From contig OY820591.1 of NCBI GenBank assembly GCA_963555985.3, positions 1,024,001-1,088,000 on the forward strand: 64,000 bases of DNA. Direction: 5' to 3'. The notes under the pieces are model-generated. The model saw only the letters and a list, made by a program, of their open reading frames with translations, was not told where the DNA came from and did no database searches. Made by a program: the position numbers and the translations under genes. The DNA is from Dehalococcoidia bacterium. GTDB taxonomy: Bacteria; Chloroflexota; Dehalococcoidia; Bin125. This document shows positions 26,105 to 34,240 of this stretch, in pieces; the first letter of the stretch is position 1; the number at the start of each line of letters is the position of its first letter.

Positions 26105-27017
26105 GACTCTGCAAATCGTTGATGTTGACCAGCGTGGGCCGCTCGCGCCGTAACGTCGTCCGCGTCAGACCGGTCAGCACCGTGCCGGGCCCCATCTCCA
26201 CCCATGTATCCACACCCAGTTCATGCATCCGCAGCACCGTATCCCGCCAGCGCACCGGCCGCCGAATCTGCGCAGTCAAATCCGCCCGTACTTCCTCCGC
26301 CGTGCTCAGCGCCGTCGCTTCGACATTGCCGATCACCGTGACCTGCGGATCGGCGATCTCTGCTTCAGCCAGCACTGGAGCCATCGCTTCCGCAGCCGGT
26401 GTCATCAAAGACGTATGAAACGCCCCGCCGACGCGCAACCGCACCACTCGCCGCGCGCCCCGCTCCTCCGCCAGCGTCGCCGCGCGTTCCACCGCATCCG
26501 GATTGCCGCCGATCACGATCTGGCCCGTCGCATTGAGATTGCAGACCTCAGCGCCCGCTTCCGTACATACCGCTTCAACCTCGTCCTCTTCCATCCCCAG
26601 CACCGCCGCGAGCGTGCCCGGATTCTGCTCCCCGGCCGCCTGCATCAGTTCGCCCCGGCGTGCGACCAGCCGCACCGCCTCAGAGACTGTCAGCGAGCCC
26701 GCCGCAACCAGCGCCGTGTACTCGCCCATGCTGTGCCCGGCCGTAGCCAGTGGCGGCGCTGTCACCGCCTCATGTCCGCTCGCCTGCGCCGCCCGCCACG
26801 CCGCAAGACTCGCAACCAGAATGCCCGGCTGCGTGTTCACCGTCTGGCGCAGCTCCTCCTCGGGGCCCTCAAACACGATCCGCGACAAGGAGCGCCCCAG
26901 CGCCGCGTCGGCTTCATCGAACACGGCCGCCGCTTCGGGGAAAGCGTCGTACAAGTCGCGCGCCATCCCCACCTGCTGTGCGCCCTGACCGGGAAACAAC
27001 CAGGCGATGCCGGCCAT
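26094..27017 (-). CDS. fabD: Malonyl-CoA:ACP transacylase
   Basis: LFPGQGAQ, TQP, GHSMGEY, GAFHT, PVRW. Confidence 0.96.
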   Translation of the reverse strand: MAGIAWLFPGQGAQQVGMARDLYDAFPEAAAVFDEADAALGRSLSRIVFEGPEEELRQTVNTQPGILVASLAAWRAAQASGHEAVTAPPLATAGHSMGEYTALVAAGSLTVSEAVRLVARRGELMQAAGEQNPGTLAAVLGMEEDEVEAVCTEAGAEVCNLNATGQIVIGGNPDAVERAATLAEERGARRVVRLRVGGAFHTSLMTPAAEAMAPVLAEAEIADPQVTVIGNVEATALSTAEEVRADLTAQIRRPVRWRDTVLRMHELGVDTWVEMGPGTVLTGLTRTTLRRERPTLVNINDLQSLGG

Positions 27018-27020
27018 CGG

Positions 27021-27203
27021 CTACTCCTCAACCTCGACCACAGTCCGGCCGCGGTACGTGCCGCAAGACCAGCAGATGTGATGCGCCTGATGGGTCTCGT
27101 TGCATTCCGGACAGGTCACCAACTTGGGTCGGCGCACCCGGTGATGCTGCCGGCGCAGACGTTGGCGTGTCTTCGCATACTTGCGCTTCGGAAGCGGGGG
27201 CAT
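27021..27203 (-). CDS. rpmF: 50S ribosomal protein L32
   Basis: PLPKRK..KTR..LRR, CPEC...HHICWSCGTYRGR. Confidence 0.96.
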   Translation of the reverse strand: MPPLPKRKYAKTRQRLRRQHHRVRRPKLVTCPECNETHQAHHICWSCGTYRGRTVVEVEE

Positions 27204-27302
27204 CGTTCTACCTCTCTCCCGCGCCGCGCCGCCGGTGCAACGGCGCTGCGCTCCGTCTGTTCAGTGTCGTCGGGAACTCTCGCCCACGGTACTCGTTCGA
27301 CG

Positions 27303-27851
27303 CTATTCGCCCAGTTCCCTACGCAACGCCGCCAGCGCCGCCCAGCGCGCGTCGGGCAGGGGATCGCTGGCCGATTCGTCCGCGCCCATGCCGGGACAGG
27401 TCGGGCCGCAACGCGGACTCATGGGACGCGCCATCTCAACATATTGTCGCACAGCCTCTGTCAAGTCGATCTGGCCGTCGGCGACGGCAAACCCTTCCCG
27501 CTCCGGCGGCGGCTCCAGTCTCATTCCGCTTACCGGATCGGACGGCGGCCAAAACTCTTCGTCGAACGCGATCCGCAACGCCGCTGGCGTCTCTTCGAGG
27601 CAACCCCCGCAAATTTCCGGCACGATCGTCGAAATCCGCGCCGTAGCCAAGATCGAGTGATCGGTGCGCAACAGGCGCAGGTCGCCGTTCAGCGGCGAAT
27701 CCGCTCCCAGCGGTGCGCAAGTCGCATCGTCCAGTGCGTAGTGGCGCACCGAACCAATCGACTCTTGCAGAAGCGTCGACACGTTGATCAACAAGGAATT
27801 CGTGCGTCGCGCCGCCTGCGATCGGGCAGAACTCACACTGTCCTTCATCAC
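27303..27851 (-). CDS. DUF177/YceD family protein
   Basis: CGGCL, IDLTEAVRQ, PM.P.C...C.G, DARWAAL; canonical position before rpmF. Confidence 0.88.
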   Translation of the reverse strand: MMKDSVSSARSQAARRTNSLLINVSTLLQESIGSVRHYALDDATCAPLGADSPLNGDLRLLRTDHSILATARISTIVPEICGGCLEETPAALRIAFDEEFWPPSDPVSGMRLEPPPEREGFAVADGQIDLTEAVRQYVEMARPMSPRCGPTCPGMGADESASDPLPDARWAALAALRRELGE

Positions 27852-28007
27852 CTCAGCCTATCAGCGCAGCGCTATGTGCAGCGCCGCTTCCGGCTCGCAA
27901 AGGCCGCCCCGGATCGTCAAACTGAACTTGGGTCCGTTGGCGCTCACGGAACGCAGACATACACTCAGAACAGCACCGCCACCCGCCCAACGAAATCGAG
28001 CGTCGAT

Positions 28008-28703
28008 ATGGATCTTGAGGGGATGCAGCAGCTTCAGGAAATCGACATCCGCCGCGACGAGGCGCTCCGTGAGCATCGCTCGATCGATGACCAGATCATG
28101 CCGGCCCCCTTCATCGAGACGCTGGAAACAGAGCTCGGGGAACAGGAAGCGCTCCACGCTCGCGCGAGCGACGCCTTGCGCGAAGCTCGAGCTCACAGTC
28201 AAACCGCCCAGCGCCGGATCGAAGCGACCGACCAACGCATCTACAGCGGCTCCGTCACCGACCACCGCACCCTCTCCCAACTCCAGGCCGATCTCTACGC
28301 CCAGCGCCAGCAGTTGCCAACTCTTGAAGATGCAGCGCTCAATGCAGAGATCACCGTCCAGGACAACGCCGAAGCCATCGTCTGGCTGCGCCAGTTGCGT
28401 CAACGCGCTCTCGATCACTGGGAAGAGCGCCAGCGCGAGCTGCGCTCCCAACGCGGCGAAATCCAGGACCGCCTGGACGAGCTCCAGGCCGAGGTCGACC
28501 AGCATCGCGCCCGCCTCAGCGCTGGTGACCTCCAGACCTACGATCTCTACCGTCGCCGCCGGCCGCGCGTCGTCGCCTCCGTTATCGGCGGCGTCTGCTC
28601 AGAGTGTCGCCTCTCGCTGCCGACCATGGTGATCACCCGCGCTCGGCGCGGCAACCGGCCAATCGAATGTCCCGCCTGCCACTGTTTAGTGCGGGTCGCC
28701 TGA
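28008..28703 (+). CDS. Coiled-coil protein with C4-type zinc ribbon (DUF164-like)
   Basis: LQEID start, long coiled coil, CSEC...CPAC; only the 3' part of ORF 26223..28703 is credible. Confidence 0.85.
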   Translation: MDLEGMQQLQEIDIRRDEALREHRSIDDQIMPAPFIETLETELGEQEALHARASDALREARAHSQTAQRRIEATDQRIYSGSVTDHRTLSQLQADLYAQRQQLPTLEDAALNAEITVQDNAEAIVWLRQLRQRALDHWEERQRELRSQRGEIQDRLDELQAEVDQHRARLSAGDLQTYDLYRRRRPRVVASVIGGVCSECRLSLPTMVITRARRGNRPIECPACHCLVRVA

Positions 28704-28716
28704 CGCGGAGGCAAGC

Positions 28717-30204
28717 ATGCGGGCGATCGGCTATCTCAGCCAACTCGCTGGACCCGATCACCCGCACAGCCCCAATCTCGCTGAACAGAACGCTCGATTC
28801 CTCGATTTCTGTACCCAACGGGGATACCAGCCCACTGCCACTTTCCTCGATACTCGCGCCGAATCCACTCAGCAGAATCAGGGCGCTGGCGGAGACACGC
28901 CCTGCAACGGCCTCGAGCAGTTGCTCCGTCATCTCAGCGAACTCGATCCGGGCTTCACCATCGTCGTCGTGCAGAGCTTCGCCCATCTCGCGCCCGACGC
29001 GACCCAGGCCGTCCGCGCCGTCCTCCAACTCCGCGCTCGTGGCGCTCAAGTCATCTCGCTGGACGACGGCGCGCTCGATGAAACCGAACTCCCGCAACTC
29101 TGGCGCAACGCGCTCAGCAGCGGTCCCCAGAGTCAACGCGGACAGGAGCGCCGACAGCGAATGCGCGACCGCGCCGAACGCGGAGAAGCGGTCGGACGCA
29201 CCCCCTACGGCTACGAGGTCGGACCCGATGGCCGCTACCGAATCAACGACCACGAGGCTGATGTGGTCCGCCTGATCTTCCGCCTCTACCTCCAGGACGA
29301 TCTCGGAATCCGGCGTATTGCCCAACGCCTCAATCGCGCCGGCTACCAGACCCGGCGCGGGCGCCACTGGAGCATGATCAGCATCCGCGATCTACTGCTC
29401 AACCCCGTCTACATCGGTCAATACGAGAAGCTCGGCTTCAGCGTCGCCGATAATCATCCCGCAATCATCACCCGCAAGGATTTCGGCGCGGTTGCCCAAC
29501 GCATGGAGCAGCGCCGCACCGCGCCGGGCGAGGGTCAGCGCGGACAGTTCCTGCTTGCCGGTCTGGTCTGGTGCGGCGAGAGCGGCGCGCGCATGATCGG
29601 CGTCACCCGCAGACAACGCTGGCGCAAGGCGGACGGAGAGACAGCCGCAGCCGTCTACCGCTACTACCAGAGCGAAGATCGCACCAATCGCTCCGTCGGT
29701 GAGTATCACACTCGACGCGCGGACGAACTCGAAGCCGAAGTCCTGGAGCATCTCCGCAGCGGCGTCAACGGCAGCGCCCCTGCCCCCGCGATCCTCTCGC
29801 TCAACGCCGATCCCGCCGCGGCGGACACGCTCGCCGCCGAAACAGCGGCGGCAGTGACCCGCGCCGAGTCCCGCCGCCGCAGTCTCGACCGCCGGCTCGC
29901 CCAACTCCTGGAGTCCGCCTCTGCTGAGCCGGAGCAACAAGACCACGCCCAGCTGCTCCGAGACGATGCCGCCGCAATCGTCCGCGAGTGGGAAGCCGCC
30001 CACGAAGACCTCACTCGCCTCCGTCGCCGCGTCGCCGCGCAGCAGCTCGAAGCCGAACGCCAACGCCAGCACCAACGCCGCCTGCAACGCCTGCGCGAGC
30101 AGTGGGACGAACTCGACTTCGACCAGCAGCGCGACCTACTCGGCCAACTCGTAGACCAGATCATCGTCTTCGACCACCGCATCCAAACCGTCCTCCGCGC
30201 CTGA
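28717..30204 (+). CDS. Large serine recombinase family protein with degenerate catalytic domain
   Basis: Recombinase domain (PYGY, EA.VVR.IF.LY, IA..LN, W....I..LL.NPVYIG, HPAII), LLAGLVWC ribbon remnant, coiled coil; YxRxS and DRxxR are absent. Confidence 0.85.
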   Translation: MRAIGYLSQLAGPDHPHSPNLAEQNARFLDFCTQRGYQPTATFLDTRAESTQQNQGAGGDTPCNGLEQLLRHLSELDPGFTIVVVQSFAHLAPDATQAVRAVLQLRARGAQVISLDDGALDETELPQLWRNALSSGPQSQRGQERRQRMRDRAERGEAVGRTPYGYEVGPDGRYRINDHEADVVRLIFRLYLQDDLGIRRIAQRLNRAGYQTRRGRHWSMISIRDLLLNPVYIGQYEKLGFSVADNHPAIITRKDFGAVAQRMEQRRTAPGEGQRGQFLLAGLVWCGESGARMIGVTRRQRWRKADGETAAAVYRYYQSEDRTNRSVGEYHTRRADELEAEVLEHLRSGVNGSAPAPAILSLNADPAAADTLAAETAAAVTRAESRRRSLDRRLAQLLESASAEPEQQDHAQLLRDDAAAIVREWEAAHEDLTRLRRRVAAQQLEAERQRQHQRRLQRLREQWDELDFDQQRDLLGQLVDQIIVFDHRIQTVLRA

Positions 30205-30240
30205 GCCAACGCATCGCACACCGCCGACTACCCTGCCCCT

Positions 30241-30639
30241 ATGCGACTCATCGCCTACGCCGACGGCGCCTCACGAGGCAATCCCGGTCCCGCTGCCTAC
30301 GGCGCCGTCCTGTGCGACCAGAACGAGCGCGAACTGGACGCCTGGGGCAACGCGATCGGACAGGCCACCAACAACATCGCCGAATACCACGGCGCGCTGG
30401 CCGCCGTCGAAGCCGCCCTCGAACGCGGCGCGACCGAACTGGAGCTCCGCCTCGACTCCGAACTGATCGTCCGCCAGCTCGAGGGCCGCTACCGCGTCCG
30501 CAACCAAGCTCTCAAGCCGCTCTATGAACAGCTCTCCAATCTGATCGAGCAACTGGAGACCTTCCGCCCCGTCCACGTCCGCCGCGAGTTCAACCGCCGC
30601 GCCGACGCCCTCGCCAATGAAGCCCTCGATCGATCCTGA
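30241..30639 (+). CDS. rnhA: Ribonuclease HI
   Basis: YADGASRGNPG, TNNIAEY, DSELIVRQ, HVRREFN.RADALAN. Confidence 0.95.
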   Translation: MRLIAYADGASRGNPGPAAYGAVLCDQNERELDAWGNAIGQATNNIAEYHGALAAVEAALERGATELELRLDSELIVRQLEGRYRVRNQALKPLYEQLSNLIEQLETFRPVHVRREFNRRADALANEALDRS

Positions 30640-30656
30640 GCCTGCCCCGTTACAGT

Positions 30657-31056
30657 GAATTGCGCCAGGCCGCCGGGCGGTCGCGGTCTTCGACTTGATC
30701 GGGGATCGAGGAAAGTCCGGGCTCCACGGGACAGGGCGCTGGGTAACTCCCAGGCAGCGCGAGCTGACGGAAAGCGCACAGAAACACACCGCCTACCCGT
30801 TCGACCACGCGCTTCCCTTGTGGCGGACGGCGGTAAGGGTGAGATGGTGCGGTAAGAGCGCACCAGCGGTCGGGCGACCGGCCGGCTGAGCAAGCCCCGC
30901 CCGGAGCAAGACCAAATAGAGAGGCCACGGCGTGTCCCGCGCCGCCTCCGGGTAGGTCGCAAGAGGCGGCGGGCAACCGCCGCCCCAGATGGATGATCGC
31001 CGCCCGATGCACAACCATCGGGAACAGAACCCGGCTTACAGGCGGCCTGGCAATTC
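30657..31056 (+). ncRNA. rnpB: RNase P RNA (type A)
   Basis: GAGGAAAGTCCGGGCTCC, GGTGCGGTAAGAGCGCACC, GAGCAAGACCAAATAG, ACAGAACCCGGCTTA; P1 pairing of GCCAGGCCGCC with GGCGGCCTGGC. Confidence 0.97.
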
Positions 31057-31078
31057 CGACTCCTAAGGACGGGCGGCG

Positions 31079-33139
31079 TTAGCCGCCTACCTCGATCGCA
31101 GAGCTTTGCAACCAACCGGTTGCACCGCTGCGCGCCGAGATATAGCGCGAGGTTGGCAGAATCCGTTCGCCGTCTGTTGGCCTGAAGGCAAACTCCGTTC
31201 TGCCGTCGGGCAGCAGACGCGCCTCGATCCGGCCGATTTCGACTCCCTCGACAACTATGGCGCTGGAAGCGAACCAGAACTGCCTTGACGGAGTGGCGGG
31301 GACGTACCGAACGCGAGGCATGATCCGCTCTCCGCCATTGATCTGAACGGCGAATTCGGTGCGACCGTCTCTCAGCCGACGCGCCACAATCCGCAAACTG
31401 ACCGCGTCGGCTTCCATCGCAGTGATGGTTTGCACAGTGATGGTTTGAGCCAGGCGCAGCCCCGCTGGTGGTTGCGTGGCGTCAGGACCGTTGTATCCCC
31501 AACATTCGACCGTACCAGCGATCGTCACACCGCAGCTATGGGAGTCGCCTGCGCTGACCTGAACGAAGACGCCGCTAGGCGGTGAGGCTTCTCCGTACTG
31601 GTTATCTCCCCAGCACACAATCTGGCCGTTGGTTTTCACGCCACAGTTGTGAGAGACGCCTGCACTGACTTGGACGAAGTCTCCGCTCGGCGGGCTCGCC
31701 CGACCGTAGGAATCTACCCCCCAACACTCGACCTCACCGTTGCTTGTCACACCGCAACCGTGTGTGCCGTCGATAAGCAAAGGACTCCCCGCGGCCCGCT
31801 GAGACCCACCCGCGCTTACTTGAAGGAAGTGCTCTGCCCGACCGGTTGGGAGGCCGTTAAGCAGGCCCCAACAGTGAGCAACGCCTGACCTCGTCACGCC
31901 GCAGCTATGGGCGGGGCCTGCACTAACCTGTGCAAAGCGTTCTGCTGGTGGATTGCTCCAAGACACTCCCCAGCACTGAACTTCGTCTGTGCTCGTAAGC
32001 CCGCAGCTATGGTGCTCGCCTGCACTGACTTGGATGAAGCTTCCACCTGGTGGACTCGCTTGTCCGAACTCGTCCAACCCCCAGCATTCGATTGTGCCTA
32101 CGTCTGTTACGCCACAGGTGTGGTCGCTGCCTGCGCTGACTTGTATGAAACTTCCATTCGGCGGGGTCGCTTGCCCAGAATCGCCGTACCCCCAACAGAG
32201 GACCGCCTCCGCGTCCGTCACTCCGCAACTATGATCCCTGCCTGCGCTGACCTGAGTGAAACGCGCATCTGGAGGACTCGTCCGACCTATTCCGTAATAC
32301 CCCCAGCATTCTACTGCTCCTTGGTTCGTGACGCCGCAACTGTGGCCGGTGCCCGCTGCGATCTGAGTAAAGCGTCCGCGTGGTGCGCTCGTTTGACCGT
32401 ATCGATCCCACCCCCAGCAGACGATCGTGTCGTCGGTCGTGACGCCGCAATTGTGGTAATCGCCCGCGCTGAGTCGGGAGAAGCGCCCTGCTGGCGGAGT
32501 AGCTTGGCCAACTTGATCGCCACCCCAACAGACGGCTGTCCTGTCGGCTGTGAGGCCGCAACTGTGGAGGCCACCTGCGCTGAGCTGAGTGAAGCGTTCT
32601 ACTGGTGGAGTCGCTTGGCCAAACCGATCGTTACCCCAACAGACAGCGGTGCCGTCGGCTTTGAGGCCACATGTGTGGTAACCGCCCGTGCTGACTTGGA
32701 TGAAGCGTTCTGCTGGTGGAGTCGCTTGGCCAAAGTAATCGTCACCCCAACAGACAACGGTGCCGTCTGCTTTGAGGCCGCATGTGTGATAACCGCCCGT
32801 GCTGACTTGGGTGAAGAGTCCTGTTGGCGGAGTCGCTCGGCCATATTGATATTGATCATTGCCCCAACAGGCCACCGCACCGTCGGTCGTGACGCCGCAA
32901 CTGCGATAACGTCCTGCGCTAACTTGGATGAAGATACGGCTCGGCGGACTCGCTTGGCCATACTCGTCATTGCCCCAACAGACGACAGCGTTGTCTTCGC
33001 TAACCGCGCAAGTGTGGTTGTATCCTGTGCTCAGCGTCTGACCGGCGAAGTCGGCGCGGGCGCTGTCGCTAGTCATCGTGAGCGCGAAGACGGTTGCGAT
33101 TGCGGCGAACGCTGCCGCGGCGAGCAAGCGAAGAGACAT
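31079..33139 (-). CDS. Secreted RCC1-like repeat protein (14 repeats) with two C-terminal DGRxEF modules
   Basis: Signal peptide; 14 ~37-aa QVSAG..HSCG...CWG repeats; C-terminal tandem module. Confidence 0.88.
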   Translation of the reverse strand: MSLRLLAAAAFAAIATVFALTMTSDSARADFAGQTLSTGYNHTCAVSEDNAVVCWGNDEYGQASPPSRIFIQVSAGRYRSCGVTTDGAVACWGNDQYQYGRATPPTGLFTQVSTGGYHTCGLKADGTVVCWGDDYFGQATPPAERFIQVSTGGYHTCGLKADGTAVCWGNDRFGQATPPVERFTQLSAGGLHSCGLTADRTAVCWGGDQVGQATPPAGRFSRLSAGDYHNCGVTTDDTIVCWGWDRYGQTSAPRGRFTQIAAGTGHSCGVTNQGAVECWGYYGIGRTSPPDARFTQVSAGRDHSCGVTDAEAVLCWGYGDSGQATPPNGSFIQVSAGSDHTCGVTDVGTIECWGLDEFGQASPPGGSFIQVSAGEHHSCGLTSTDEVQCWGVSWSNPPAERFAQVSAGPAHSCGVTRSGVAHCWGLLNGLPTGRAEHFLQVSAGGSQRAAGSPLLIDGTHGCGVTSNGEVECWGVDSYGRASPPSGDFVQVSAGVSHNCGVKTNGQIVCWGDNQYGEASPPSGVFVQVSAGDSHSCGVTIAGTVECWGYNGPDATQPPAGLRLAQTITVQTITAMEADAVSLRIVARRLRDGRTEFAVQINGGERIMPRVRYVPATPSRQFWFASSAIVVEGVEIGRIEARLLPDGRTEFAFRPTDGERILPTSRYISARSGATGWLQSSAIEVGG

Positions 33140-33188: not shown

Positions 33189-34240
33189 TCAGTTGCCGAT
33201 CCAGTTGTCATAGAGGTAGTTGACTGGATCGACGGCGTAGGAGTCGGACGCGCCATCGAGGATGTCGCAGGCGGGCGTCCCTGGTCGGGACACCTCAACG
33301 TGGACATGCAACCGGAACGTCACTGCGCCGCCCGCGCCCAGGCCGTCAGTGGTGCCGATTCTCTGGTACTGCTCCACGGAGTCCCCGACGCTGAGATGGC
33401 TGGACCTGACCCCGTGCAGGTAGCGTGTGATGTAGCCGTCGGAGTCCTTGATCGCGATCTGGCCGTAGCTGTCGCGGAGGCAGACGATCGTGCCCTCTGT
33501 CAGCGAATGGAAGCCGTGTTTCCTGGTGCCTTGGCTGTAGCGGTAGGAGTCCCAACCCGAATGCCCGCCTTGGTATCCGGCACGTGCATCGCTCGACTCA
33601 GTGCAGTTCCAACCGTCTGGGCAGTTCCCGTAGTCGTTGTAGGCGTATCGCAACTCTTCGCCGAACTGGTGCAGGGCGACTGCGAGGTCCCAGAGCTTGG
33701 TCGACCTAGCGACTTGGCTGGCGGCGGGGCGGGCGATCTCGATCCACGAACTGACCAGCCACTGGTTGACCGTCGCCCGGCGTGGGAAGTACCTCGCCGG
33801 CGGCAGGATGTCCTGATATCCCTCGACACGGAAGCCGAACTCCACGCGACCGTCGGGTGCACGGCGAGCGATGATTCTGCCCGCGTAGCCGTCGCCGAAG
33901 TCGATTTCAGTGCTCTGTAGCCAGTTGTTGTGATCCGGTCCGACGGCGGGGAAGTACCGCGCAGGCGGTAGGTACTGACGCCCGGCAGCGTCCCGCATCC
34001 CGAATTCGGTTCGCCCGTCGGAATTCCGCCGCGCGATGATGCGGACGGAGATCGTGTCTCCCGACGAGGCCTGCGCCTCCACCCTCGGCGTCAGCGGGCT
34101 GCGGACGCCTTCCGACCCACTCCCAAGCACACTCCATGCGATCGCACCCACCAGGACCATGGCGGAGAGCGCAATCCCTAGAACAAGGAGGCTACCCCCC
34201 CCCCCCCCCCCCCCCCCCCACGAATCTTTGTACTAAACAT
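33189..34240 (-). CDS. Secreted M23 family peptidase with two DGRxEF modules; leader frameshifted at a G25 tract
   Basis: HSGWD, YLH and HVH zinc motifs; annotated ORF is 33189..34160; hydrophobic leader continues in frame up to the poly-G; ATG 34240 would be in frame at G23 or G26. Confidence 0.75.
34195..34219. repeat. Homopolymer C25 (G25 on the coding strand)
   Basis: Direct count. Confidence 0.9.

What the first reader, a model, noticed from the sequence alone, without database searches (positions are those of the whole stretch)
28008..31056. Apparently catalytically dead, domesticated large serine recombinase in the zinc ribbon-rnhA-rnpB unit
Seen: the N-terminus MRAIGYLSQL aligns without gaps to the resolvase MRLFGYARVS, so Arg8 becomes Ser and the Ser10 nucleophile becomes Leu. 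RPGL becomes CNGL, DRLxR becomes AHLAP, and only one zinc-ribbon Cys remains (CGES...YYQS). The DNA-binding recombinase domain and coiled coil look intact and the 495-codon ORF is unbroken. It has its own GGAGG and the local C-rich codon usage, and lies 13 nt after the zinc-ribbon gene and 36 nt before rnhA, which is 17 nt from rnpB. No phage or ICE cargo is adjacent. Established: these residues are required for serine recombinase strand exchange. Inference: the protein has been repurposed as a non-catalytic DNA-binding, bridging or anti-integrase factor co-expressed with RNA/R-loop processing genes.
Basis: partly seen in the sequence, partly recalled or inferred. Interest (0 to 1): 0.78.

Follow-up and report, generated by a model that had tools for sequence, protein, structure and literature searches.

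The report
Domesticated dead serine recombinase gene
A gene descended from a phage-type DNA-integrating enzyme has lost the residues that cut DNA, yet one class of bacteria has kept it intact at the same chromosomal spot, so it has very probably taken on a different job that is still unknown.

Summary
ORF 28717-30204 (495 aa) has the full large-serine-recombinase (LSR) architecture: catalytic-domain fold, recombinase domain, zinc-ribbon domain and coiled coil. It lacks the Ser nucleophile (Leu10), Arg8 (Ser) and the DRLxR arginines (AHLAP), and keeps 1 of 4 zinc cysteines.

It is not a decaying relic. It is the only resolvase-domain gene in its genome. Single-copy orthologues occur in 167 of 301 sampled genomes of the same class, distributed clade by clade. 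With a family profile, no sampled genome of another class scored in the family's range.

In 80 of 80 further species genomes the gene directly follows a DUF164-type zinc-ribbon gene, and 73 of 80 show the full order ZnR-LSR-rnhA-rnpB. Two relatives without it have ZnR-rnhA-rnpB directly adjacent.

The 40 sampled members form one clade (support 100) next to canonical RVS-bearing LSRs. dN/dS is about 0.12, with the zinc-ribbon domain at 0.05. None of 117 members has Arg8 and Ser10 together.

The domestication reading is strongly supported. The function is not shown. The best guess is a non-catalytic, sequence-specific DNA-binding or bridging protein tied to the RNA-polymerase-associated ZnR / RNase P RNA module. 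An anti-integrase role is disfavoured. I found no description of such a family in the literature searched.

The parts
27937..27965 (+). Putative sigma-70-like promoter of the operon (TTGGCG, 17-nt spacer, TACACT), about 43 nt upstream of the ZnR start codon
   Evidence: Read from the sequence. It scores 8 of 12 and so falls below the scan tool's threshold; one search lists no promoter. The CATACACTC -10-like word recurs upstream of the ZnR gene in 6 of 24 non-redundant orthologous loci, and other clades carry TCTATAATCC at the same place. This part is inferred, not shown.
28008..28703 (+). ZnR gene: a DUF164-type protein with a coiled coil and a C4 zinc ribbon (231 aa)
   Evidence: Pfam Zn_ribbon_9 scores 21.2 bits, below the 29.1 cut-off. 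A profile of 21 orthologues matches the PDB chains CT398 (1.3e-12), MSMEG_4306 (4.1e-12) and HP0958 (3.6e-7) over their full length. Four Cys are invariant.
28707..28711 (+). GGAGG ribosome-binding site of the LSR-derived gene, 5 nt before its ATG
   Evidence: Read from the sequence.
28717..30204 (+). LSR-derived gene (495 aa plus stop codon), predicted catalytically inactive
28717..29181 (+). Residues 1-155: degenerate resolvase-fold N-terminal domain plus helix E. Ser10 is Leu, Arg8 is Ser, DRLxR is AHLAP. Cys32 is invariant.
   Evidence: Alignment with canonical LSRs. Family counts. Model secondary structure. Foldseek matches to catalytic-domain-only structures: 3bvp_B (TMt 0.68) and 2gm5_C (TMt 0.64). 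dN/dS 0.138.
29182..29526 (+). Residues 156-270: recombinase domain (helix-turn-helix type DNA-binding module of LSRs), basic and highly conserved
   Evidence: Pfam PF07508, 5.3e-19. Aligns to the A118 integrase C-terminal domain. Residues 171-270 carry net charge +7 (family median +8). dN/dS 0.096 for residues 156-270.
29527..29766 (+). Residues 271-350: zinc-ribbon domain, with the fold kept but 3 of 4 Cys ligands lost in this lineage
   Evidence: Pfam PF13408, 9.4e-8. The four Cys are kept in 27 of 117 members. This domain has the lowest dN/dS, 0.051.
29767..30201 (+). Residues 351-495: long antiparallel coiled coil (model helices 366-403 and 408-465) and a closing beta-hairpin
   Evidence: AF2 model. 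The model aligns along the full length with SPbeta, PhiC31 and Bxb1 integrases. dN/dS 0.140.
30241..30639 (+). rnhA, RNase HI (132 aa)
   Evidence: Pfam RVT_3 9.4e-22 and RNase_H 8e-10. NCBIfam RNase H models.
30665..31054 (+). rnpB, RNase P RNA of bacterial class A
   Evidence: Rfam RF00010, 279.2 bits, model positions 1-367 of 367.

Best explanation
The gene descends from a large serine recombinase (a phage or ICE integrase type). It entered the junction between the DUF164 zinc-ribbon gene and rnhA/rnpB once, in an ancestor of a large part of the class that public record titles call Dehalococcoidia (phylum Chloroflexota). It lost the catalytic Ser and Arg residues and has been inherited vertically as a single-copy host gene ever since. 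These points are supported by sequence, synteny and tree results (single origin is the simplest reading of the tree).

The rest is inferred. The protein no longer cuts or rejoins DNA. It still uses the LSR recombinase and zinc-ribbon domains to bind a specific nucleic-acid site, most probably double-stranded DNA as a dimer. Its coiled coil and degenerate N-terminal domain probably still serve protein-protein contacts such as dimerisation, bridging of two sites, or a partner. Its invariant position directly after an RNA-polymerase-associated DUF164 protein, and usually just before the RNase P RNA gene, suggests an architectural or regulatory role linked to that transcription/RNA-processing module. 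The target site and the output are unknown.
For: Architecture. All LSR domains are present by Pfam. The AF2 model (pLDDT 83) matches SPbeta, PhiC31, Bxb1 and A118 integrases along its full length (Foldseek E 3.6e-20 and weaker).

Loss of catalytic residues. Alignment with 4 canonical LSRs from related genomes shows the losses. Among 117 full-length members: Ser at position 10 in 5, Arg8 in 27, both together in 0; Arg at the R68-equivalent in 20, and at the R71-equivalent in 1.

Single copy. The gene is the only PF00239 match in its 3.33-Mb genome.

Distribution.
- 24 of 24 genomes of the same family have it.
- 167 of 301 genomes of the class have a match at E<=1e-30, one match each among the genomes listed, with whole families either having it or not: f1 20/20, f16 20/20, f31 12/12, against f14 0/9, f21 0/11, f23 0/9. 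One of the 167, G235, is flagged unpublished; without it the count is 166 of 300.
- With a family profile on a phylum sample, 14 of 401 genomes score E<=1e-94, and all 14 are in the same class. The next-best score is 1.3e-65, from a genome with two matches.

Synteny.
- 26 of 29 loci show ZnR, LSR and rnhA.
- In 80 species genomes, ZnR and LSR are adjacent in 80 of 80, and ZnR-LSR-rnhA-rnpB is collinear in 73 of 80.
- In 12 divergent lineages, ZnR and LSR are adjacent in 11 of 12 and rnpB follows in 8 of 12.
- The two class members without the gene that were examined (G038, G069) have ZnR-rnhA-rnpB directly adjacent.

Trees. The 40 family rows form one clade (SH-aLRT 100, stem length 0.66) beside canonical RVS-bearing LSRs. 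The gene tree follows genus labels: all 6 genera with more than one row are monophyletic, and the 10 label changes are the minimum possible.

Selection. Median dN/dS over 220 pairs is 0.117 (NTD 0.138, RD 0.096, ZD 0.051, CC 0.140). The neighbours give ZnR 0.114 and rnhA 0.074.

Nucleic-acid-binding core. Helix E plus linker, RD and ZD are the most conserved parts and are basic (family median net charge +6, +8, +6). The NTD is acidic (-6.5).

The ZnR partner. DUF164 homologues are linked to RNA polymerase and DNA. MSMEG_4306 was recovered with RNAP beta and cross-linked to DNA (PMC7092591, passages read). Its M. leprae homologue ML1638 is predicted to bind beta' (bioRxiv 10.64898/2026.07.15.738315, passage read). 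DUF164 linkage to rnhA and to the RNase P RNA gene is noted in other phyla (PMC3372290, passages and figure legend read).
Against: No experiment or computation here shows DNA binding, a target site, oligomerisation or a partner.

No conserved non-coding motif was found beyond promoter-like words.

The window's own lineage has lost 3 of 4 zinc ligands. That could weaken the zinc-ribbon domain, although this domain has the lowest dN/dS.

One family representative (P0140) keeps Arg8 and Ser10, and 5 of 117 members have Ser at position 10, so the loss is not perfectly uniform.

dS between the pairs used is high (about 0.6-1.4), and the pairs are not independent. The dN/dS values are therefore approximate.

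One orthologue (G001) carries an in-frame TAG.

Inactivity is inferred from residues. It was not assayed.
Confidence: 0.6

Rival explanations
1. It binds RNA or RNA:DNA hybrids rather than duplex DNA. It would act on RNase P RNA (assembly, stability, processing of the co-transcribed rnpB) or on R-loops together with RNase HI.
For: rnpB follows the gene in 73 of 80 loci. In at least four divergent lineages rnpB lies only 77-100 nt after it, with no rnhA in between (L120, L126, L127, L129). The conserved core is basic. From memory, not checked here: the DUF164 relative HP0958 has been reported to bind mRNA.
Against: The recombinase and zinc-ribbon domains of LSRs are known only as duplex-DNA binders; the structures matched are all DNA complexes. 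A normal rnpA is present elsewhere in the genome. rnpB is missing from the locus, or inverted, in several genomes.
Confidence: 0.15
2. It is mainly a protein scaffold. The coiled coil and degenerate N-terminal domain would bind the neighbouring ZnR protein and/or RNA polymerase, and nucleic-acid binding would be secondary or lost.
For: The two genes are adjacent in 80 of 80 loci, and the gap is -1 to 4 nt in 33 of 80, which fits translational coupling. Both proteins carry long coiled coils. DUF164 proteins are associated with RNA polymerase (PMC7092591; bioRxiv 10.64898/2026.07.15.738315).
Against: The coiled coil is the least conserved part (mean major-residue frequency 0.28). RD and ZD are the most conserved (0.61 and 0.59) and are basic. 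ZnR exists and keeps its rnhA/rnpB context without the LSR-derived gene in G038 and G069.
Confidence: 0.1
3. It is an anti-integrase or defence decoy. It would occupy att sites or poison incoming LSRs by forming mixed oligomers.
For: It keeps the DNA-binding and oligomerisation parts of an integrase without catalysis, which is the anatomy of a dominant negative.
Against: Purifying selection is strong and uniform (dN/dS 0.05-0.14), with no sign of an arms race. It has been fixed in a housekeeping operon across a whole class for a long time. PADLOC gives no match. This genome has no other serine recombinase.
Confidence: 0.05
4. It is still an active recombinase that uses a displaced nucleophile (Ser8, Thr, Tyr6 or Cys32).
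For: The catalytic-domain fold is kept and is under selection. Cys32 is invariant (117 of 117, and all 34 rows of A2). Tyr6 is nearly invariant.
Against: Ser8 is Arg, Thr, Gly or Ala in 38 of 117 members. Tyr6 is Phe in several divergent members (P0216, P0217, P0244). Cys32 is also present in the nearest canonical LSRs that have a normal Ser. The transition-state arginines are missing (R71-equivalent in 1 of 117). The single-copy, fixed position shows no inversion or excision substrate and no flanking repeats.
Confidence: 0.04
5. It is a neutrally decaying remnant of an integrated element.
For: The catalytic residues and three zinc ligands are lost. One orthologue has an in-frame TAG.
Against: The reading frame is intact, without internal stops, in 32 of the 33 genomes with a match, and full-length matches without stops are listed. 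dN/dS is about 0.12 in all domains. The family spans identities down to about 25% while keeping full length.
Confidence: 0.01

Closest known systems
Large serine recombinases / serine integrases (SPbeta integrase YokA/SprA, PhiC31, Bxb1, A118/LI integrases)
   Same: The four-part architecture is the same: resolvase-fold N-terminal domain with helix E, recombinase domain, zinc-ribbon domain and embedded coiled coil. This is supported by Pfam, sequence matches to PDB chains 4kis/6dnw/9dxh and full-length Foldseek matches (E 3.6e-20 to 1e-14).
   Different: The nucleophilic Ser and the active-site Arg residues are missing. In the window's lineage 3 of 4 zinc ligands are missing. The gene is a single-copy, vertically inherited chromosomal gene in a housekeeping operon, with no cargo and no att-like repeats.
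The nearest canonical, RVS-bearing LSR group found here (representatives P0249, P0251, P0252, P0253, P0266)
   Same: These are the nearest branches to the family in the tree. They share the F..C motif (Cys32), the Trp at the position of W129, and a short region before helix E.
   Different: They keep Y-x-R-V-S-T and D-R-F-G-R. I did not examine their genomic context.
The DUF164 (HP0958/FlgZ, CT398/CdsZ, MSMEG_4306) - rnhA - RNase P RNA gene neighbourhood
   Same: The host operon is this known neighbourhood. The ZnR profile matches CT398, MSMEG_4306 and HP0958. Linkage of DUF164 genes to rnhA and to the RNase P RNA gene in other phyla is described in PMC3372290 (passages and figure 3 legend read). 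Class members without the LSR-derived gene have ZnR-rnhA-rnpB directly adjacent.
   Different: None of the passages I read describes a recombinase-derived gene as part of this neighbourhood. Here it sits between ZnR and rnhA/rnpB in every locus of the clade examined, except 1 of 12 divergent loci where ZnR was not detected.
Domesticated or catalytically dead recombinases and transposases in general (from memory: domesticated PiggyBac and hAT transposases of eukaryotes, non-catalytic transposase-derived regulators)
   Same: The evolutionary logic is the same: a mobile-element enzyme is fixed as a host gene, and its DNA-recognition parts are retained.
   Different: Those cases belong to other enzyme superfamilies, and most are eukaryotic or still catalytic (titles seen in the listing). 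My searches found no bacterial LSR example.

Membership tests
Large serine recombinase (functional enzyme) | N-terminal resolvase-fold catalytic domain | tested here: met
   PF00239 scores 25.8 bits against a cut-off of 23.3, over residues 21-155. Foldseek matches catalytic-domain structures 3bvp_B (TMt 0.68), 2gm5_C (0.64) and 3guv (0.63).
Large serine recombinase (functional enzyme) | Nucleophilic Ser in the N-terminal Y-x-R-x-S motif | tested here: not met
   Leu10 stands at the Ser position, in a gap-free alignment with four canonical LSRs. Ser occurs there in 5 of 117 family members, and never together with Arg8.
Large serine recombinase (functional enzyme) | Active-site arginines (Arg8, Arg68, Arg71; the gamma-delta resolvase numbering is from memory) | tested here: not met
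   The window has Ser8 and AHLAP in place of DRLxR. Across the family, Arg occurs at these positions in 27, 20 and 1 of 117 members.
Large serine recombinase (functional enzyme) | Recombinase domain (PF07508) | tested here: met
   68.8 bits, profile positions 2-102 of 102. Aligns to the A118 integrase C-terminal domain.
Large serine recombinase (functional enzyme) | Zinc-ribbon domain with four Cys ligands | tested here: inconclusive
   The domain is recognised (PF13408, 32.8 bits) and modelled as beta strands. Only Cys286 of the four ligands remains in the window. All four are kept in 27 of 117 members and in most divergent members.
Large serine recombinase (functional enzyme) | Coiled-coil motif embedded in the zinc-ribbon domain | tested here: met
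   Model helices 366-403 and 408-465 are followed by closing strands 479-493. The model aligns along the full length with SPbeta, PhiC31 and Bxb1 integrases.
Large serine recombinase (functional enzyme) | Mobile-element context: att sites, cargo genes, patchy or multi-copy distribution | tested here: not met
   No flanking repeats. The neighbours are housekeeping genes. The gene is single-copy and distributed clade by clade. Its position is fixed in 80 of 80 loci.
Large serine recombinase (functional enzyme) | DNA cleavage and strand-exchange activity | not testable with these tools
   This needs biochemical assays.
DUF164 / COG1579 zinc-ribbon proteins (the upstream gene) | N-terminal coiled-coil hairpin plus a C-terminal C4 zinc ribbon | tested here: met
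   PF02591 scores only 21.2 bits, below its 29.1 cut-off. A profile of 21 orthologues matches CT398, MSMEG_4306 and HP0958 over their full length (1.3e-12 to 3.6e-7). Four Cys are invariant.
Bacterial RNase P RNA class A (the downstream gene) | Match to the RF00010 covariance model above its gathering score | tested here: met
   279.2 bits against a gathering score of 100, over the full model.

The most novel reading that the evidence does not exclude
A whole bacterial class has turned an integrase into a non-cutting 'synaptic' DNA-binding protein. It would still recognise an att-like site, possibly at or near the rnpB locus or at conserved sites genome-wide, and still use its coiled coil to pair sites or recruit partners. 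It would work together with the RNA-polymerase-bound DUF164 protein and RNase HI as a transcription / R-loop / RNase P RNA control module. That would be the first host-domesticated large serine recombinase, and a first functional handle on the enigmatic, widespread DUF164-rnhA-rnpB unit.
Probability: 0.2. Interest if true: 0.8.

Novelty: new variant of a known kind. Interest (0 to 1): 0.62.

Why it matters
Large serine recombinases are studied almost only as mobile-element enzymes and as genome-engineering tools. A deep, vertically inherited clade has kept the site-recognition and coiled-coil machinery and discarded the chemistry. At least 383 of the loci scanned in a collection holding one genome per species encode a relative.

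Such a clade is a natural experiment on what that machinery can do without strand exchange.

It also ties a sequence-specific DNA-binding module to the DUF164-rnhA-rnpB neighbourhood, whose function is unknown although it is conserved across phyla. The bound sites of this protein could therefore point to what that module does.

On the practical side, automatic annotation calls these genes 'recombinase family protein' or 'DNA invertase'. That is misleading when mobile elements are counted in Dehalococcoidia genomes assembled from metagenomes.

Tried and rejected
1. Complex prediction of the LSR-derived protein with the ZnR protein, both given as alignments. The result was 'no answer', score 0.00, and the controls were not run. 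This is no evidence either way.

2. Sequencing runs. No RNA holder was listed; three DNA holders came from one study. I did not use read laying, so co-transcription stays untested.

3. Search for a binding site.
- The repeat finder on 27600-31300 gave only short, imperfect repeats, typical of GC-rich coding DNA, and no att-like flanks.
- k-mer enrichment in the 250 nt upstream of the ZnR gene, in 24 non-redundant loci, gave only -10-like promoter words (CTATAATCC, CATACACTC) and a word (GAGACGTTGA) that turned out to be the reverse complement of the conserved 5' coding end of the divergent yceD gene.

4. The promoter/terminator scan found no promoter above its threshold and one terminator-like site inside rnhA on the minus strand, within chance expectation.

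5. PADLOC defence models gave no match for any of the three proteins.

6. Earlier findings of this scan: nothing by place or by sequence.

7. Literature. Searches for inactive, domesticated or pseudo serine recombinases, and for Dehalococcoidia plus serine recombinase, found no description of such a family. This covers only the held open-access library. Supplements were not consulted.

8. The search for related loci with the diverse alignment A2 failed because it had no stretch conserved enough. I repeated it with A1.

9. The idea that the protein replaces RNase P protein was rejected, because rnpA is present elsewhere in the genome.


Full report
**What is in the window**

The finding covers four co-oriented features on the + strand.
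- A 231-aa gene for a coiled-coil plus zinc-ribbon protein (28008-28703), called ZnR here.
- A 495-aa ORF (28717-30204).
- rnhA (30241-30639).
- rnpB (30665-31054; Rfam RF00010, 279 bits).

The one exception is the rnhA-rnpB gap, which is 25 nt by the Rfam match and not 17.

Upstream, on the other strand, lie yceD, rpmF, fabD and nusB. Downstream lie an RCC1-repeat protein and an M23 peptidase. No phage or ICE genes and no att-like flanking repeats are present.

**The protein is a complete large serine recombinase (LSR) in architecture**

Pfam finds the Resolvase, Recombinase and Zn_ribbon_recom domains. NCBIfam finds weak, sub-threshold likeness to CcrB, XisF, CcrC and CcrA. phmmer finds the A118 and SPbeta integrases in the PDB.

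An AlphaFold2 model built on a 27-sequence alignment (mean pLDDT 83) has these parts:
- a beta/alpha N-terminal domain;
- a helical recombinase domain;
- a beta-rich zinc-ribbon domain;
- a long helical hairpin (residues 366-465);
- a closing beta-hairpin.

Foldseek matches the whole model to the SPbeta, PhiC31, Bxb1 and A118 integrases (E from 3.6e-20). It matches the N-terminal part to catalytic-domain-only structures such as TP901-1 integrase and gamma-delta resolvase.

**The catalytic residues are gone**

I took four bona fide LSRs from related genomes (L032-L035) and aligned them with family members. The N-terminus aligns without gaps.
- Canonical Y-V-R-V-S corresponds to Y6-L7-S8-Q9-L10.
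- RPGL corresponds to CNGL.
- DRLSR corresponds to AHLAP.

Of the four zinc ligands only Cys286 remains.

**This is a family property, not a private defect**

A word-based search found 219 relatives, of which the best 120 were listed, at 38-86% identity. Among the 117 full-length ones:
- position 10 is Ser in 5, and otherwise Arg, Pro, Thr, Cys, Tyr and others;
- position 8 is Arg in 27, Ser in 77 and Thr in 9;
- none has Arg8 and Ser10 together;
- the R68-equivalent is Arg in 20, and the R71-equivalent is Arg in 1;
- all four zinc Cys are kept in 27, so the loss of zinc ligands is a later event in the window's sub-clade;
- Cys32 is invariant.

An exhaustive profile search of 1.84 billion representatives gave 1,160 proteins at E<=1e-30. 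I printed the N-termini of 149 of the best 150. Nearly all that begin at the N-terminus read M-R-A-[IV]-G-Y and then lack the R-V-S motif. Canonical RVST-bearing proteins appear only from about E 5e-56 downwards. One family representative, P0140, keeps Arg8 and Ser10 but lacks both DRxxR arginines.

**Distribution and inheritance**

The gene is single-copy and is the only resolvase-domain match in its own 3.33-Mb, 96%-complete genome.
- All 24 sampled genomes of the same family carry one strong orthologue.
- In a sample of the class, 167 of 301 genomes have a match at E<=1e-30, one match each among the genomes listed. Whole families are either positive or negative: f1 20/20, f6 19/20, f16 20/20, f31 12/12, f33 15/17, against f14 0/9, f21 0/11, f23 0/9. 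One of the 167, G235, is flagged unpublished; without it the count is 166 of 300.
- In a sample of the phylum, a family profile gives 14 of 401 genomes at E<=1e-94, all in the same class. There is then a gap to 1.3e-65, where weaker matches begin, often several per genome, in other classes as well (the single-protein query agrees).

Record titles of 80 further loci, and names of cluster members, read Dehalococcoidia, Chloroflexota or Tepidiformales. All are metagenome-assembled genomes.

A tree of 25 orthologues plus the window follows the genus labels exactly: all six genera with more than one row are monophyletic, and the 10 label changes are the minimum possible. One row, L020, was left out because an in-frame TAG cut its ORF.

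A tree of 40 family members of my choosing and 11 canonical LSRs puts the family in one clade with SH-aLRT 100, on a stem of 0.66. The nearest branches are canonical LSRs that share the F..C and Trp motifs. The simplest reading is one capture and one inactivation.

**Synteny**
- In 29 loci from relatives, ZnR and the LSR-derived gene are both found in 27, rnhA is found in 26, and rnpB is found within the short flank in 22.
- In 80 species genomes with 3-kb flanks, ZnR directly precedes the gene in 80 of 80, and the order ZnR-LSR-rnhA-rnpB holds in 73 of 80.
- In 12 of the most divergent lineages, ZnR precedes it in 11 and rnpB follows in 8. rnhA is detected in only 2, and in four of these loci rnpB starts 77-100 nt after the gene.

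The constant partners are therefore ZnR and, less strictly, rnpB.

The two class members without the gene that I examined (G038, G069) have ZnR, rnhA and rnpB directly adjacent. The gene thus sits exactly at the ZnR|rnhA junction of an older unit. That unit is known from other phyla (PMC3372290, passages and figure 3 legend read).

**Selection**

I applied Nei-Gojobori dN/dS to 220 of the 226 pairs at 80-97% amino-acid identity. Six pairs were dropped because dS fell outside 0.05-1.5 or could not be computed. The pairs are not independent. The medians are:

| Region or gene | Median dN/dS |
|---|---|
| Whole gene | 0.117 |
| N-terminal domain | 0.138 |
| Recombinase domain | 0.096 |
| Zinc-ribbon domain | 0.051 |
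| Coiled coil and tail | 0.140 |
| ZnR (same pairs) | 0.114 |
| rnhA (same pairs) | 0.074 |

dS is high, so the values are rough, but they lie far from neutrality. Even the dead catalytic domain is constrained.

**What it most likely does**

Three things rest on sequence, synteny and tree results: the gene is LSR-derived, it lacks the catalytic residues family-wide, and it is inherited vertically at a fixed place under purifying selection. The rest is inference.

The most conserved and most basic parts are helix E plus linker, the recombinase domain and the zinc-ribbon domain. Their family median net charges are +6, +8 and +6, and their mean major-residue frequencies are 0.56-0.61. The N-terminal domain is acidic and the coiled coil is variable. 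In LSRs these conserved parts recognise the att half-site. The best guess is therefore a sequence-specific DNA-binding protein that no longer cuts. Its N-terminal domain and coiled coil would be kept for dimerisation, site pairing or a partner.

The upstream ZnR protein is a homologue of CT398, MSMEG_4306 and HP0958.
- MSMEG_4306 co-purified with RNA polymerase and cross-linked to DNA (PMC7092591, passages read).
- Its M. leprae homologue ML1638 is predicted to bind beta' (bioRxiv 10.64898/2026.07.15.738315, passage read).

That makes a role linked to transcription or RNA processing plausible, but nothing here shows it.

Three attempts to get further gave no answer.
- Complex prediction with ZnR gave no answer.
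- No RNA run was listed.
- Motif searches gave only promoter-like words and yceD coding sequence.

**Rivals**
- RNA or R-loop binding remains open at about 0.15, given the tight link to rnpB. It is not favoured, because the matched structures are all duplex-DNA complexes and because rnpA is present elsewhere.
- A pure scaffold role is less likely, because the coiled coil is the least conserved part.
- An anti-integrase decoy is disfavoured by uniform purifying selection, the housekeeping context, the lack of any PADLOC match and the absence of any other serine recombinase in this genome.
- A displaced nucleophile is unlikely. Ser8 and Tyr6 vary, Cys32 is shared with active relatives, and the arginines are missing.
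- Neutral decay is excluded.

**Novelty**

Four full-text searches found no description of a catalytically dead, host-fixed LSR family, nor of a recombinase gene inside the DUF164-rnhA-rnpB unit. The held library is open-access only, and supplements were not seen.

I file this as a new variant of a known kind. By descent and fold it belongs to the LSR superfamily. It fails the defining catalytic and mobile-context features of a functional LSR.

Noticed in passing
L120, L126, L127, L129 (also L119, L122); L013 and L074: In several divergent lineages, and in G005, rnhA is not detected between the LSR-derived gene and rnpB. rnpB then starts 77-100 nt after the gene. The LSR-rnpB link therefore survives loss or relocation of rnhA.
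   Followed up: partly
L038, L047, L052, L069 (about 780 nt) and L056 (about 1750 nt), between the LSR-derived gene and rnhA: Extra DNA is inserted at the LSR|rnhA junction. In L038 it holds two small overlapping ORFs (97 and 129 aa) that look like a toxin-antitoxin-type pair. In L056 it holds a 457-aa gene on the minus strand. This junction tolerates insertions.
   Followed up: partly
L028, L102 (rnpB on the opposite strand); L090 (rnpB upstream of ZnR, inverted); L003, L007, L008, L021 (no rnpB within about 1 kb): Local rearrangements have moved or inverted rnpB relative to the operon in a minority of genomes.
   Followed up: no
P0140 (representative): This family member, nested deep in the clade, reads Y-F-R-V-S at the N-terminus (Arg8 and Ser10 present) but has DHLGD instead of DRxxR. 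This is either retention or chance reversion.
   Followed up: partly
window 28717-30204, residue Cys32, and the nearest canonical LSRs: Cys32 (motif F..[FY]C in the first helix) is invariant in 117 of 117 members and in all 34 divergent members. It is shared with the nearest active LSRs. Its role is unknown.
   Followed up: partly
window 31079-33139 (-) and 33189-34160 (-): A 686-aa protein with 13 RCC1_2 repeats and the neighbouring M23-peptidase-like protein both carry repeated stretches of the form [IV]ARR..DGR.EF. This is a shared short module I did not identify.
   Followed up: no
window 26223-28703 (+): An 826-aa open frame runs into the ZnR gene in the same frame. It is a product of high G+C and overlaps fabD, rpmF and yceD on the other strand. 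The conserved ZnR start is the ATG at 28008 (MDLEG...), as in 40 or more orthologues.
   Followed up: yes
G001 (L020): The orthologue in this 130-contig genome has one in-frame TAG. It is either a sequencing or assembly error or a recent pseudogene.
   Followed up: no
upstream of the ZnR gene in many loci: The divergently transcribed yceD gene is the conserved upstream neighbour in 28 of 81 loci, judged by its 5' coding word. This extends the conserved host context beyond the four-gene unit.
   Followed up: partly
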